This document shows positions 1,738-19,687 of a stretch of DNA of 64,000 bases, piece by piece (within the stretch, counting starts at the first letter, position 1; each line of letters opens with the position of its first letter). The translations under genes and the position numbers were made by a program. The DNA comes from Daphnia carinata (lineage: Eukaryota): the NCBI RefSeq assembly GCF_022539665.2, contig NC_081334.1:3038001-3102000 (forward strand), in the 5' to 3' direction. A model generated the notes under the pieces. It ran no database searches and was not told where the DNA came from. It was given only the letters and a program-made list of their open reading frames with translations.

Positions 1738-2040
1738 ATGAAAACAACTGTAAGACTTTTAGTCTGATTATTTTTCGTAATTTGTTACCATACTTCACTT
1801 TTAATTCTCTGTTTGCAGTTTCTCATGGTTTGTGCAGTTTTGTTTTGCCTCTTGTTGCTGTCCTCTCCCCAACCTGCAATGAGCAAGCGTTGTAAAAAGA
1901 TAAAAAGTGGAGACACTTGCTGGGCCACTGCTCAGTCCTGTGGCATCAGCTTGGATCAGCTCTACAAAGTAAATCCATCCTTGCAAGGCGGCAGAAAATG
2001 CAATTATTTGCAGATCGGGCAAACCCTCTGTTGTGACTAG
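1738..2040 (+). CDS. Small secreted single-LysM protein (exons 1738-1749, 1819-2040)
   Basis: ATG AAA ACA ACT|gtaag...ttgcag| leads into a hydrophobic signal peptide (FLMVCAVLFCLLLLSS), then KSGDTCWATAQSCGISLDQLYKVNPSLQGGRKCNYLQIGQTLCC, a Cys-containing LysM motif. Confidence 0.88.
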
Positions 2041-2859
2041 TTGTTAAGCTCAGCAGTTGGTATCTTCTCCGAAAATGATAAATATTTGCTAAAGAATTAC
2101 ATACGTGTTGGTTATATGGCATATTAGTTTAGAGTTAATTAACTACGAATTGCTTTGCTGCTACAAGTGATTTCCCATGTGTTTACATTACACATACGTC
2201 ATTACATCAAATACAATATGTCATGTTCTACACTACAGAATCTTTTTTGTTCTAAAATCCATTTTTATAGCATTGGCATACGGTCCATATATATGTCGTC
2301 ATACGGTATATATATGAGTGTCAGTATTTTTTGGTATCGACGAGGGTCCATTTTGATAAGCATCCATAAACCGTATATGGGGAGACCTACGAACAACCTA
2401 CGTTCAAATAATCGATCTTTAACATAGATGTATAAATGTGTGTGTGTGTTTTTTTTCTTCTGCCATTTAAGCCTCTTTATAGTCGGCTTCTCTCTTCATC
2501 TTCTTCCTTGATGATGTCCGAAGTGATCTTGCGTAATCCGATGAATTGAAGAATCTTGCGAGTCTTGAATGACGTATTGGAGGGGTGGGTGGGAGGGGAG
2601 GGTGGTGGGGGGAGAGCGAAGAGGGTCACGGCGGTATCCGGATGATTACAAAGCGTGGGTGATAACCACTGTGCCAAGACCGCACATTCAAATCAAATTT
2701 TGCTTTGAGTGTCGCCAGTTTAAATAGGTAGCTTATAGGTAAAATGCGTAGTAGAAATATGTCGATGTGTTACAGTTCGCGGCTGCCATGCTGAATTCAC
2801 AGGTTCGATTCTTTATTCTTTAATTTTTTTTTTGCTTTTGGATTTTGAATTAATTTAAA

Positions 2860-4690
2860 AAAAAAACTCTTTCAACTTAAATAAAAATAACAATAAAATG
2901 CCGTAAATGTTGGAAGTTGGTAGATATCCTCCAAAATTCTGAGGGGAATAAGATTAAGAAAATTGCAAAATGGCCGTCGGTTGTCTCGCGTAGTGATCAC
3001 ATGTCTGGCAGACGAACATTGGGAACATTGGAGTGTTGCTAATGTCGAGTTCTAAGGTTTTTATTTCCCTTGCAATTACAATTTTGACTTCCCAATTTCA
3101 TAGTTACTGCATGCTTGACATCTCTATAAAATGTTCTTTATTGCGATTTATTTAATGCTGTTTCAATTTGAATCGGGCTTAGCCCACGGAAAGGCTGCGT
3201 TCTAATACCTGGATTGCCAGAGATTGTCAACCGACCCAAAGCCACATATGATCTGTTCCCAACCGAGCTACATCATTCACACGAGGAGAGAACACATTTC
3301 CAGGTCAGTTGTATTTCTTTATCTTGTTTTATTTGCATTTCGTAAATATGCTAAATTTCTTTTTCAGATTTTGATTTTACCATTGTCTTCATCCCATGTC
3401 ATTTTCTGTTAAAAAGTTTAGAATCCTATTCTAGTTTACACAGTTCATTTTAACATGCCAATGTGTTGTACCATATTGTACTTAACCAGAGTATTGGCAT
3501 ATGTATTTGTGAATTCCACATAAGCCATCAGTTCTAAAATTGCTGGCATTATTCGGAATCATCTCACAATGGAAATGTCACCCTGTTTGCTAAGTACTTT
3601 GTTGTTAATACTTCAACTGATACCATTTTTCTGTACATTTAATTTCCCTATTATAATGGCCTCTAATGGCATGGTTTTGAGTAGTCTGAATATTGTGTAT
3701 TACAAGAATATTAAGTTACCCATATAAAAATAGCTAAATGCAAACACCAATGTCTTTCTATGCTTTAGCCTTTGTTGTAGCAGTAATGACCTGACAATGG
3801 ATCATAAAGATGGTCTCCATGGTAGGAAACCGCATAGACCACCATTTGCTGGGGAACGAGGATCCGCTATCGGCACGGTTTTCATAAAATTGCAAAATGG
3901 CCGTCGGTTGTCTCGCGTAGTGATCACGTGTCTGGCAGACGAACATTGGGAACATTGGAGTGTTGCTGCTGTCGACTTCTAAGTTGTTTATTTCTCATGT
4001 AATTACAATTTTGACTTCCAAATTTCATAGTTACTGCGTGCTCGAAATCTTTATAAAATGTTCTTTATTGGGATTTATTTAATGCTGTTTCAATTTGAAT
4101 CGGCCTTAGCCCACAGAAAGGCTGCGTTCTAATACCTGGATTGTCAACCGACCCAAAGCCACATGTGATCTGTTCCTAACCGAGCTACATTATTCCCACG
4201 AGCAGAGAACACATTTCCAGGTCAGTTGTATTTCTTTTTCTTCTTCTACTTGCATTTCACAAGTATGCTAAATTTCGTTTTCAGATTTTTATCTTACCAT
4301 TATCTTCATCCAATGTCATTTTCTGTTAAAAAGTTTAGAATCCTTTTCTAGTTTACACAGTTCATTTTAACATGCCAATGTGTTGTGCCAAATTGTACTT
4401 AACCAGAGTATTGGCATATGTGTTTGTGAATACCACATAAGCCATCAATTCTAAACTTGCTGGCATTATTTGGAATCATCTCACAACAGAAACGTCACCC
4501 CCCCTAAGTACTTTGTTGTTAATCTTCAACTGATACCATTTTACTGTATATTTAATTTCCCTATTATAATGGCCTGTAATGACATGATTTCGAGTAGTCT
4601 GAATATTGTGTATTTTAAGAATATTAAGTTACACATATAAAAACTAAATGCAAACACCAACAACAAACACTAAATGCAATGTCTTTCTAG
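2860..4690. repeat. About 1 kb unit in two tandem copies (about 2860-3890 and 3886-4690), with a third copy at about 9390-10180
   Basis: Shared strings such as ttgcaaaatggccgtcggttgtctc (near 2962, 3890, 9497) and gaaaggctgcgttctaatac (near 3189, 4116, 9722). Confidence 0.9.
3764..3890 (-). pseudogene. 3' fragment of the secreted PAN/Apple gene
   Basis: Closely similar to 10182-10300 (ttagcctttgttgtagcagtaatgacctgacaatgga...gctatcggcacggttttcat) but truncated where the next repeat copy begins. Confidence 0.8.
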
Positions 4691-4692
4691 CT

Positions 4693-17801: not shown

Positions 17802-18105
17802 ATGAACAAAGATGTGGATGCCATATTACCGGATTCAGACGTGGGTAGTGAGGTGACATTAGATTCGTCTTCAGATGTTGGAAGGTAATTGAGTAGTCAA
17901 TACAAACGCGAATAATGTAGTGAAGACTAATTTTGTGTTTTGAATGATTCCAGAGCTTCGCCTACGTTAAAAGGCTTACAAGCTCGAGAGAGCAATAAAA
18001 AACAACGAACTGGACGACCATTCCATTTTCAGTCAACTATATCAGCAAATCGTTCAGAGTCTCCAGTATTAGTTGATGCTGTACCATATGATAATGCTCA
18101 AGAAG
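17802..18105 (+). pseudogene. Truncated 5' duplicate of SLC38A9 (exons 1-2 only)
   Basis: Closely similar to 20664-20968 and ends at the duplication junction. Confidence 0.85.
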
Positions 18106-19232
18106 TAATAGCTTAACTTTTATATCAACTTAGGGTTTGCAAGTTTACCTTGTACATAAATTGTTAAAGACATTGTATCTATAGGCAATTTTGATAGTAT
18201 GTGTTCGTAGCATCTGAAGGGCATACCTTTCTTTAAAAAATGCTGACAGTAAATGTGGTCAGACACCTGGCTAAGTATGGCATGTTGGAGCTAAAACAAA
18301 TGCTGATTACCTTCCCCAAGTCCTTGGAAGGGCAACTATAGCCATGTGTAATTGTCTCATCAATCTTGTTGAGATAGAAGCCGATATTGGTTTTCCCTAA
18401 AGCCAAACTTGAGGTTGGAAAGTTGTTCCTCGTCACGTACATCCTCCAGTTACCAGCCATCACTATGGAGATGTCGTTGTACGCTAGAAAAGAAGAAAAC
18501 GCGTTGAACGAAAAGGCTGCACAACTAGACCAAATGCCACTACCACCCCACCAGTCGACATAAAGTAAGTAAGTGAAGTGTAAGTCTTATTTTTGGTCAA
18601 ATTTAAATCCTTATGTTAGCAATAGAACCAGGTAAGCAATTCACAGTTTTATTGCAACAATGGCTCTAGATGTAGGTGGGGCAGGGGGGGGGATAGGCGC
18701 AACTGAGATTTCTAGTTTTTGCCCAGACAACTTTTTCATTTTAACCACTTAAACGATGGAGGGAATTGTTCAAAAAGGTCTTCCATCATTTATAGTTCAT
18801 TTTTCTATAAGCTGGTTACATTATTTTTTTTCCTACCGCTTTCTTATACAGTATTAACAATTAATTTCCGTGAACACCCATGCTAGGGGCACTTTCCGCA
18901 TGCGCGTACTCTTTCCTGCAATTTGGCAACCTTGCTCAAGCCATTGCAGCTAAATTGCCAAATACAGCCTTTTAAATTTCCTATTTTGATAAACATCGTT
19001 TGCGGTTGGCTTATACATATTGTCTGCACCTAGCCGAGATAACTGGCGGCAAGTCTATACATTTTTTTAGCTTAGTTAAACGATTTGTTATTTGTAATCG
19101 TAGGGAGCATAAACTGGTTTTCTGTTTCAGCCACGCCCTACCTCACTTAAGCTGAAAACAGATTCCCAACTCTGTTACGTCGCTCACTTTCCAGTTAATA
19201 TACAGTAGACCTTTTGAACCGACTGCGCGAAA

Positions 19233-19687
19233 ATGAAAACTGCGGTAAGCCTATTTTGTAACAACTGCATACTTTCCTTTGTAATATTTTCTGTTTTCTT
19301 AAAACTTGTACTACTATGCACACGCTTTGTATTGCTGTGTAATAGTTCATACAGTTCGCCTTGATCTTTGCTCTGCTGCTGGATACGTCCTCTGCATTGC
19401 AGTTTGCCGGCAACTTCAGGACACGACGAAACGAACCCCCATACGGGTGCAAGAGTTGGTGGCAAATACGTCAGGGTAGCACATGCTGGGAAATGGCTAG
19501 AATTTGTAGAATAGACCTGAATACCCTTTATCGTAACAATGGAGTTTTGGAAGGTGGCAGGGCCTGCAATAATTTGCAAATCGGACATTTTCTTTGCTGC
19601 GAATACGACAGGACCAGAGCCCAAAACTACGAATACAGTCCGTACGAAATGTATGGCGGAATGTATCGCGGAAGGTATGGCGGTTGA
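19233..19687 (+). CDS. Secreted LysM prepropeptide paralog (exons 19233-19244, about 19346-19687)
   Basis: Same structure as the 16320 copy: RTRR site, GSTCWEMARICRIDLNTLYRNN...CNNLQIGHFLCC, and a longer YGG-containing tail. Confidence 0.85.

What the first reader, a model, noticed from the sequence alone, without database searches (positions are those of the whole stretch)
1738..19687. Candidate clustered secreted anti-cell-wall system in an animal genome: LysM x3, PAN/Apple, PAN-expansin and SleB-type hydrolase
Seen: every intact gene I can recognise between CNOT11 and SLC38A9 encodes a small protein with a signal peptide, and the genes belong to four unrelated domain families. Established: LysM binds GlcNAc polymers (peptidoglycan, chitin); Hydrolase_2/SleB enzymes cleave peptidoglycan; expansins loosen cell-wall polysaccharides, and Bacillus EXLX1 binds peptidoglycan and cellulose; PAN/Apple domains mediate glycan or protein binding. 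Inference: this is a functional cluster of non-homologous genes, some probably acquired horizontally, acting as a bind-loosen-cut module for antibacterial defence or for digesting bacteria and algae in a filter feeder. Functional clustering of unrelated genes is unusual in animals, and I am not aware of this combination having been described.
Basis: partly seen in the sequence, partly recalled or inferred. Interest (0 to 1): 0.9.

Follow-up and report, generated by a model that had tools for sequence, protein, structure and literature searches.

The report
Water-flea expansin beside bacterial wall cutter
Daphnia water fleas carry a spliced, transcribed gene whose predicted structure is a two-domain expansin (a wall-loosening protein of plants and microbes, not firmly shown in animals), next to a known bacteria-derived cell-wall hydrolase and LysM sugar-binding genes, likely a small secreted kit for opening the walls of swallowed algae and microbes.

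Summary
The genes are real; the window is Daphnia (the spliced hydrolase is identical to a D. carinata RefSeq protein). Between CNOT11 and SLC38A9 lie three LysM genes, two stand-alone PAN genes, one intact and one internally deleted PAN-expansin, one Hydrolase_2 (cwh), PAN relics and a truncated SLC38A9 copy. That is three gene lineages inflated by local duplication. The expansin call holds although Pfam misses it: the AlphaFold model (pLDDT 96) matches two-domain expansins (EXLX1, E 4e-9; Z 16.6) and keeps the Thr/Asp pair by motif. Its small family holds Daphnia, gall midges, chytrids and protists; no bacterial member was found. PAN-expansin and cwh carry consecutive identifiers in D. sinensis, D. 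magna and D. galeata; the LysM lies alongside in the first two. But the housekeeping flanks keep their order too, cwh transfer into Daphnia is published, and the named D. pulex cwh genes lie elsewhere. In one D. magna dataset the PAN-expansin co-varies weakly with trypsins and amylase and does not rise after fungal exposure, favouring digestion over immunity. Co-regulation and activity are untested. The solid novelty is a genuine animal expansin clade; the cooperative cluster is plausible, not shown.

The parts
1..1049 (+). CNOT11, 3' part (left flank)
   Evidence: Pfam CNOT11 E 5e-40
1738..2040 (+). LysM_A: exons 1738-1749, 1819-2040; 77 aa; hydrophobic leader plus one Cys-bracketed LysM
   Evidence: GT-AG model; PF01476 E 5e-10; best PDB hits are chitinase LysMs 4pxv, 5bum
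3740..3885 (-). PAN gene relic (3' end only)
   Evidence: self-blast to PAN2; broken frames
4684..4960 (-). PAN gene relic with frameshifts
6528..6887 (-). PAN1: stand-alone secreted-type PAN/Apple protein, 119 aa, single coding exon
   Evidence: PAN_4 E 3e-5; dN/dS 0.32 against PAN2
8155..8847 (+). PAN-expansin copy 1: exons 8155-8461, 8526-8847; internal deletion of about 307 nt removes most of D1 and frameshifts; 151-aa product; transcribed
   Evidence: X1 contigs carry the copy-1 splice joint and the deletion joint
10182..10541 (-). PAN2: stand-alone PAN protein, 119 aa, head-to-head with PAN-expansin copy 2 (TATA-like boxes about 650 bp apart)
   Evidence: PAN_4 E 6e-5; upstream sequence
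11383..12550 (+). PAN-expansin copy 2 (intact): TATA-like box 11383, non-coding exon, coding exons 11546-11867 and 11934-12550; 312 aa = leader + PAN + expansin D1 (DPBB) + D2 (beta-sandwich)
   Evidence: AF2 pLDDT 96; Foldseek EXLX1 E 4e-9; VIA Z 16.6; both introns spliced in X1; 86-88% to D. magna and D. sinensis proteins
13058..13791 (+). cwh / Hydrolase_2 (SleB-like predicted lytic transglycosylase): exons 13058-13268, 13355-13791; 215 aa; leader, acidic spacer (18 of 59 D/E), catalytic-position Glu98
   Evidence: PF07486 E 1e-19; 100% identical to D. carinata XP_059350921.1; SleB 4f55 alignment; intron spliced in X1
14030..18105 (.). Segmental duplication unit 1 (unit 2 at 18158-20968)
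   Evidence: self-blast 84-87%
16320..16759 (+). LysM_B: exons 16320-16331, 16439-16759; 110 aa; leader, RTRR dibasic site, LysM, Tyr/Gly tail
   Evidence: 81-82% to D. magna LOC123473628 and D. sinensis GHT06_016510
17802..18116 (+). Truncated copy of SLC38A9 exons 1-2 carried by the duplication
19233..19687 (+). LysM_C: exons 19233-19244, 19346-19687; 117 aa; 85% identical to LysM_B
20664..23047 (+). SLC38A9 (right flank)

Best explanation
This is a small island of genes for likely secreted glycan-targeting proteins in a Daphnia genome, built from three lineages (a PAN-fused protein predicted to fold as an expansin, a bacteria-derived SleB-type hydrolase and cysteine-type LysM proteins) and enlarged by local duplication, which most likely acts in the gut on the walls of swallowed algae, fungi and bacteria. 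Proposed steps: PAN and LysM modules would attach to wall glycans (inferred; LysM most like chitin binders); the expansin would loosen cellulose- or chitin-type networks without cutting, using Thr115/Asp188 and the D2 aromatics (fold predicted, residues matched by motif, activity untested); cwh would cut peptidoglycan at Glu98 as a lytic transglycosylase (family knowledge; activity shown only for ladybird homologues). The genes probably act in parallel on different walls of a mixed diet rather than as one machine on one substrate; killing of Gram-positive bacteria would be a by-product.
For: Intact, spliced, transcribed genes; purifying selection between paralogues, dN/dS 0.26-0.48 on small counts. 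Expansin fold. Asp188 equivalent kept in 47 of 48 aligned rows and 44 of 57 wider rows, 6 gapped. The family is fused to CBM1 in 3 and to PAN in 5 of 42 wider members scanned; named members include chytrids, Leptophrys vorax and Pirum gemmata. D. magna PAN-expansin (APZ42_018006): of 166 other genes tested, the four best correlates are three trypsins and an alpha-amylase (r 0.73-0.85, 11 animals). Adjacency of PAN-expansin and cwh: D. sinensis GHT06_016512/016511, D. magna OUZ56_030579/80 and 030584/85, D. galeata CAH0108844/45; LysM: GHT06_016510, OUZ56_030588, KZS16379 near KZS16377. Independent hints that these modules work together: a PAN_4-Hydrolase_2 fusion (P0030) and a loosenin-like DPBB gene head-to-head with cwh in an animal-like contig (L007).
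Against: The co-expression rests mainly on two control animals; without them r falls to 0.13-0.53; all 167 genes come from one slice of the gene list, the trypsins are from the same genomic block, and the data are whole-body, so moult stage or local chromatin could explain it. Tags of cwh and LysM in that dataset were not identified; in the block APZ42_017988-018023 only three trypsins and SCAMP track the expansin. D. galeata cwh and the named D. pulex cwh proteins lack the hydrophobic leader, so secretion is not universal. Named D. pulex cwh genes are on another scaffold and chromosome than its PAN-expansins. No binding or activity data exist. Only 1 of about 9 distinct animal-like cwh loci had an expansin-related neighbour, and none matched the window's LysM, PAN or expansin.
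Confidence: 0.45

Rival explanations
1. Incidental neighbours: three unrelated fast-evolving or acquired genes landed in one duplication-prone interval, stayed linked because local gene order is conserved anyway, and work independently.
For: Flanking housekeeping genes keep the same order in D. magna. Most of the apparent size is recent tandem and segmental duplication with relics, and even SLC38A9 exons were copied. Daphnia has unlinked cwh and expansin paralogues (PAN-less expansin OUZ56_010783 and GHT06_020050 on other contigs; several cwh places in Table S4 of PMC7807722). The substrates suggested by the closest relatives differ (chitin, cellulose, peptidoglycan).
Against: Two rare foreign-type genes (about 2 and 3-5 loci per genome) being immediate neighbours, 508 bp apart, with a third wall-binding family next to them is unlikely under random placement (rough estimate below 1 in 1000 for the pair, assuming about 20,000 genes; post hoc). 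The pair was duplicated as a unit in D. magna. The modules meet again in P0030 and L007.
Confidence: 0.27
2. Immune effector island: LysM and PAN recognise microbial walls, and expansin and cwh damage them in haemolymph or at the gut barrier after infection.
For: Ladybird cwh1 is induced by Bacillus subtilis and the recombinant protein limits its growth (PMC7807722 section 5). Birth-and-death duplication is typical of defence loci (general knowledge). Cys-type LysM could bind fungal chitin.
Against: D. magna PAN-expansin is not higher 12 days after Metschnikowia exposure (geometric means: control 558, exposed 289, infected 201; p 0.11). Term searches in supplements of three other Daphnia infection papers returned no row for these genes (weak, since annotation names may differ). 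In ladybirds the signal-peptide form cwh2 was not induced.
Confidence: 0.18
3. Self-remodelling: the expansin, PAN and LysM proteins act on the animal's own chitin (peritrophic matrix or cuticle at moult), and only cwh is antibacterial.
For: The LysMs are closest to chitinase LysMs; fungal loosenins bind chitin better than cellulose (PMC9888185 passages); the strong between-animal swings could be moult stage.
Against: The co-varying annotated genes are trypsins, amylase and lectin-domain genes rather than cuticle genes (small slice only); the family's CBM1 fusions point to cellulose.
Confidence: 0.1

Closest known systems
Microbial expansins (EXLX: Bacillus EXLX1 2bh0/3d30, Talaromyces 7wvr, Clavibacter 4jcw)
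   Same: Predicted two-domain D1-D2 fold in canonical order (TM 0.63-0.67; Z 15-16.6, rmsd 2.8-3.0 over 175-179 residues); Thr and Asp at the motif positions; paired aromatics at the start of D2.
   Different: Only 12-18% identity; 0 of 48 aligned members hit Pfam DPBB_1 or Expansin_C; Ser replaces the second D1 Asp (motif-level); N-terminal PAN fusion; intron-containing animal gene; activity untested.
Horizontally acquired animal cwh genes (ladybirds, springtails, tardigrades, nematodes, Daphnia; PMC7807722)
   Same: Hydrolase_2 domain, SleB catalytic-position Glu, Daphnia listed in that paper.
   Different: The paper says non-ladybird homologues lack a signal peptide; this orthologue has a hydrophobic leader and an acidic spacer in D. 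carinata, D. sinensis and D. magna. The passages and table seen do not mention the expansin or LysM neighbours (Fig. S1 image not seen).
Cys-bracketed chitin-binding LysM of fern, horsetail and Volvox chitinases (4pxv, 5bum, 5k2l; organism names recalled)
   Same: Best structural-database hits; same Cys framework.
   Different: Stand-alone single domain; B and C have a dibasic pro-region and a Tyr/Gly tail; binding untested.
Erwinia tracheiphila expansin-GH5 adjacent pair; nematode expansin-like proteins
   Same: An expansin gene placed next to a wall-cutting enzyme (bioRxiv 10.1101/637728 passage); animal use of acquired wall-loosening proteins.
   Different: Here a eukaryotic locus with separate spliced genes and a peptidoglycan enzyme; nematode proteins have reversed domain order according to that paper.

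Membership tests
Expansin superfamily (EXLX-like) | N-terminal DPBB (D1) packed on a C-terminal beta-sandwich (D2) | tested here: met
   AF2 model pLDDT 96, pTM 0.90; the 11 Foldseek hits with E<0.001 are all expansins; VIA top five are expansins, model range 1-199
Expansin superfamily (EXLX-like) | Thr12/Asp82 pair in D1 | tested here: met
   Thr115 and Asp188 conserved (32 of 32 ungapped rows; 47 of 48); placed on the TYY and DLS motifs of a loosenin-like protein by a non-significant profile alignment; no residue-level superposition was available
Expansin superfamily (EXLX-like) | Linear aromatic triplet on D2 | tested here: inconclusive
   Tyr237/Tyr238 and Trp268/Phe269 are conserved aromatics; which one is the third triplet residue could not be fixed
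Expansin superfamily (EXLX-like) | Pfam DPBB_1 / Expansin_C sequence match | tested here: not met
   0 of 48 members, 0 of 42 wider members; so a divergent clade, not a member of a profiled subfamily
Expansin superfamily (EXLX-like) | Non-lytic loosening of cellulose or wall networks | not testable with these tools
   needs creep or filter-paper assay
Hydrolase_2 / SleB / animal cwh | PF07486 above cut-off | tested here: met
   71.4 bits against cut-off 27
Hydrolase_2 / SleB / animal cwh | Catalytic Glu in the E-x-R-G-E motif | tested here: met
   Glu98 aligns with the SleB motif Glu in 4f55 and 4fet; its catalytic role in SleB is recalled
Hydrolase_2 / SleB / animal cwh | Peptidoglycan cleavage or antibacterial activity | not testable with these tools
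   shown for ladybird cwh1 only
LysM | PF01476 above cut-off | tested here: inconclusive
   met for LysM_A (39.6 against 20.9 bits), not for B and C alone (13-14 bits); B and C are placed by homology
PAN/Apple | PAN profile match and Cys framework | tested here: inconclusive
   consistent PAN_4/PAN_1 hits at E 3e-5 to 2e-3, below cut-off; relatives P0030, P0307 and P0319 pass cut-off; no fold prediction was run on this domain
Functional gene cluster of non-homologous genes | Linkage kept across relatives | tested here: met
   PAN-expansin and cwh consecutive in D. sinensis, D. magna and D. galeata; LysM in D. sinensis and D. magna; inferred from identifiers and shared contig lengths, not from DNA
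Functional gene cluster of non-homologous genes | Linkage kept beyond the background of local synteny | tested here: inconclusive
   flanks equally conserved in D. magna; D. pulex orthologue of this cwh not identified
Functional gene cluster of non-homologous genes | Co-expression of the members | tested here: inconclusive
   PAN-expansin and cwh are both present in one sample; cwh and LysM tags unknown in the count table
Functional gene cluster of non-homologous genes | Members act in one process | not testable with these tools
   needs assays and knock-downs

The most novel reading that the evidence does not exclude
Daphnia has assembled, from a bacterial hydrolase, a protist/chytrid-type expansin and chitin-type LysM genes, a selected and co-regulated gene cluster that binds, loosens and cuts microbial and algal walls in the gut, with the first bona fide canonical expansin clade working in arthropods.
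Probability: 0.3. Interest if true: 0.82.

Novelty: new variant of a known kind. Interest (0 to 1): 0.62.

Why it matters
A survey of expansins states that the few annotated animal expansins are unconfirmed as real cellular genes (10.1101/637728). Here a canonical two-domain expansin-like gene has introns, spliced transcripts, orthologues in six named Daphnia species and relatives in gall midges, and is invisible to Pfam. It gives a direct test of how a keystone grazer deals with walled algae and bacteria, and of whether acquired wall-acting genes are gathered into clusters in animals.

Tried and rejected
No whole genome was held, so synteny rests on database identifiers. Single-sequence fold of the expansin part failed (pLDDT 33); the alignment-based fold was used. 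Sequence searches of the expansin part against PDB gave nothing. Pattern scans for expansin relatives in viral contigs and in 185,579 prokaryote genomes found none (28 and 30 candidate stretches, 0 confirmed; limited sensitivity); viral fold search gave no match under E 0.001. No RNA holder was listed; run X2 laid nothing. The X1 contig that joins PAN-like and PAN-expansin 5' sequence has non-canonical ends and mixed paralogue letters and was not interpreted. The 242-aa frame 8119-8847 is open only if the intron is retained; X1 shows the intron removed, so it was rejected as a gene model. The 117-aa frame at 18233-18586 (-) is broken in its duplicate and has no Pfam hit; rejected as a gene. 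Contamination rejected: introns, animal flanks, GC3 0.38-0.53 against 0.32-0.46 for three neighbouring host exons. PAN1 and PAN2 as translated were not in the exact-match collection, and their orthologues and that of LysM_A were not traced. The tree of 53 expansin domains is unrooted with mostly unnamed tips and does not name a donor. The sigma-70 scan is irrelevant to an animal. Three look-ups of earlier scan findings returned nothing. No complex prediction was run, as no binding between the proteins is claimed.
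Full report
Identity of the window. The spliced hydrolase model is identical over 215 of 215 residues to D. carinata XP_059350921.1, so the window is Daphnia carinata or indistinguishable from it at this gene. 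Flanks are CNOT11 and SLC38A9.

Anatomy. Gene models with GT-AG introns: LysM_A (77 aa), PAN1 and PAN2 on the minus strand (119 aa each), PAN-expansin copy 1 (deleted, 151 aa) and copy 2 (312 aa), cwh (215 aa), LysM_B (110 aa) and LysM_C (117 aa). Self-comparison shows the interval is largely duplicated blocks at 68-92% identity: a PAN / PAN-expansin head-to-head unit twice, PAN relics, and a LysM-SLC38A9 5' unit twice. PAN1 and PAN2 are 47-53% identical to the PAN half of Daphnia PAN-expansins. Paralogue pairs give dN/dS 0.26-0.48 on 5-22 synonymous changes, consistent with purifying selection. All eight products have a hydrophobic N-terminus; this is a hydropathy proxy, not SignalP.

Transcription. 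Contigs of run X1, laid on 10100-14000, skip the three predicted introns (71, 66 and 86 nt, GT..AG) and leave intergenic bins empty. The run is labelled 'DNA?' but behaves as RNA (inferred; one sample). It also carries the splice and deletion joints of copy 1, so the damaged copy is transcribed. The LysM genes and PAN1 lay outside the stretch laid.

The expansin call. Pfam finds nothing in the C-terminal 205 residues nor in any of 48 aligned family members. The Atlas feature search pointed to DPBB/expansin clusters at 0.90-0.91. AlphaFold with the 48-row alignment gave pLDDT 96, pTM 0.90. All 11 Foldseek hits under E 0.001 are expansins, led by Bacillus EXLX1 (E 4e-9, TM 0.64-0.67). VIA-align against 48,161 chains ranks five expansins first (Z 14.4-16.6, rmsd 2.8-3.0, 175-183 residues), then single DPBB proteins at 10.5 or less. 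Thr115 and Asp188 are conserved and fall on the motifs that hold EXLX1 Thr12 and Asp82, whose substitution reduces or abolishes activity (PMC9888185, passages); the register comes from a non-significant profile alignment, so it is motif-level. The family is small: 55 proteins of 669 candidates and 141 clusters in the full HMM search. Named members are Daphnia species, two gall midges, four chytrid genera, Pirum gemmata and Leptophrys vorax (10 of the 131 wider hits were looked up, 6 had a name, 3 of them informative). Of 42 wider members scanned, 5 carry PAN and 3 carry CBM1, one weakly. No prokaryotic or viral member was found. The tree groups the Daphnia PAN-expansins by species group and puts gall-midge sequences next to the large clade that holds them (95/84), but it is unrooted and names no donor; transfer from a microbial eukaryote is an inference from patchiness.

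The hydrolase. Hydrolase_2 at E 1e-19; Glu98 aligns with the SleB motif. Of 112 homologues, the named ones are almost all small animals: rotifers, tardigrades, nematodes, springtail, flies. This is the published cwh family (PMC7807722; I read passages, sections 5 and 6, and part 2 of 3 of supplement 1), already listed for Daphnia, with antibacterial activity shown for ladybird cwh1. A hydrophobic leader was found in 6 of 112 hits by my proxy (many hits are fragments); D. galeata and the named D. pulex proteins lack it.

LysM. The closest solved structures are Cys-bracketed chitinase LysMs (E 4e-7 for A; E 4e-9 for the profile), ahead of the peptidoglycan enzyme LytE. LysM_B found 2 relatives among 3 candidates, both Daphnia.

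Linkage. D. sinensis: GHT06_016510 LysM, 016511 cwh, 016512 PAN-expansin, one contig. D. magna: OUZ56_030579/030580 and 030584/030585 are expansin/cwh pairs, 030587 a truncated PAN-expansin, 030588 LysM; in another assembly KZS16377 and KZS16379. D. galeata: CAH0108844 PAN-expansin, CAH0108845 cwh. This spans both subgenera (placement of the species recalled). Against: in the D. magna annotation table the rows run CNOT11, one unseen row, PAN-expansin, one unseen row, WDR63, KIF17, BBS2, the order seen in this window, so conserved order is the local norm. In D. pulex an expansin (EFX81508) lies in the accession block of CNOT11 and POLI, but the named cwh genes are on another scaffold and chromosome; they are the shorter paralogue, and the true orthologue was not found. 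Among 27 metagenome loci for cwh, none matched the window's LysM, PAN or expansin. Pfam on about 50 of 196 neighbouring frames, those of the best-scoring loci, found one expansin-related neighbour: a loosenin-like DPBB gene about 440 bp head-to-head with cwh in L007, 1 of about 9 distinct animal-like places, many with short flanks. P0030 fuses PAN_4 to Hydrolase_2, and P0056 has a weak CBM14 tail.

Expression. PMC13587834 (abstract, methods part 1 of 2, passages, one part of the raw-count sheet and 18 annotation rows; the differential-expression tables were cut from the held file and not seen) gives counts for 11 single D. magna. I kept 167 of the 187 rows in that part, dropping 20 near-zero rows, and normalised on 137 of them. 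APZ42_018006 is moderately expressed and variable. Its best correlates are trypsins 018009, 017995 and 018016 and alpha-amylase 018031 (r 0.85, 0.82, 0.73, 0.79), then a C-type lectin, SCAMP and a CUB/LRR gene. Two controls drive this; without them r is 0.13-0.53. Means fall from control 558 to exposed 289 and infected 201 (p 0.11). This leans to digestion and away from induced defence, weakly. It says nothing on cwh or LysM, whose tags I could not identify.

Prior description. Ten literature searches found the cwh paper and no paper listing a Daphnia expansin or this combination; I saw only listings for most hits, and subscription journals are not covered. The expansin survey 10.1101/637728 (passages) says metazoan expansins are few and unconfirmed; its supplements were not seen. 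For PMC10375369, PMC4551569 and PMC6295042 I ran supplement term searches only; PMC5294986 and PMC12632131 passages were not relevant.

Verdict. Observation confirmed with corrections; interpretation partly supported. Shown: gene structures, transcription of two lineages, family membership of cwh, adjacency in four species by identifiers. Predicted: expansin fold, secretion. Inferred: gut role, substrates, cooperation. The firm new element is a Pfam-invisible, PAN-fused, canonical expansin clade in arthropods; the selected bind-loosen-cut cluster has about 30% odds. Interest 0.62.

Noticed in passing
L007:9238-10375: In an AT-rich animal-like contig (LDLa and 7TM genes nearby) a leaderless loosenin-like DPBB gene sits head-to-head, about 440 bp from a cwh gene; it is a different expansin-related lineage from the Daphnia one.
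   Followed up: partly
P0030, P0056 (proteins): Hydrolase_2 fused to an N-terminal PAN_4 domain (P0030) or to a C-terminal CBM14-like tail (P0056) in unnamed organisms.
   Followed up: partly
window 8155-8847: The deleted PAN-expansin copy is still spliced and transcribed and would give a PAN-only protein, a possible route to stand-alone PAN genes; D. magna OUZ56_030587 is also a truncated copy that runs out of frame into cwh sequence.
   Followed up: partly
window 17802-18116: Truncated duplicate of SLC38A9 exons 1-2 with its upstream region, ending at the duplication breakpoint.
   Followed up: partly
window 15750-16150: An insertion of about 450 bp rich in GATCG motifs, present upstream of LysM_B and absent from the LysM_C copy; may be a small transposon.
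   Followed up: no
window 2824-3515, 3886-4431, 9357-10055: A block of about 600-700 bp repeated three times at 88% identity downstream of the PAN genes, with splice-like sites but no recognised coding frame.
   Followed up: no
P0131, P0136 (gall midges Contarinia, Sitodiplosis): Plant-galling flies carry the same expansin clade, one with PAN; a candidate wall-loosening salivary protein, annotated only as uncharacterized.
   Followed up: no
window 49997-50340: GC-rich tandem repeat with long open frames on both strands.
   Followed up: no
window 37877-38491: A 204-aa frame with a hydrophobic N-terminus and a Cys-ended domain between BBS2 and an RTF1-like gene (label recalled); not identified.
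   Followed up: no
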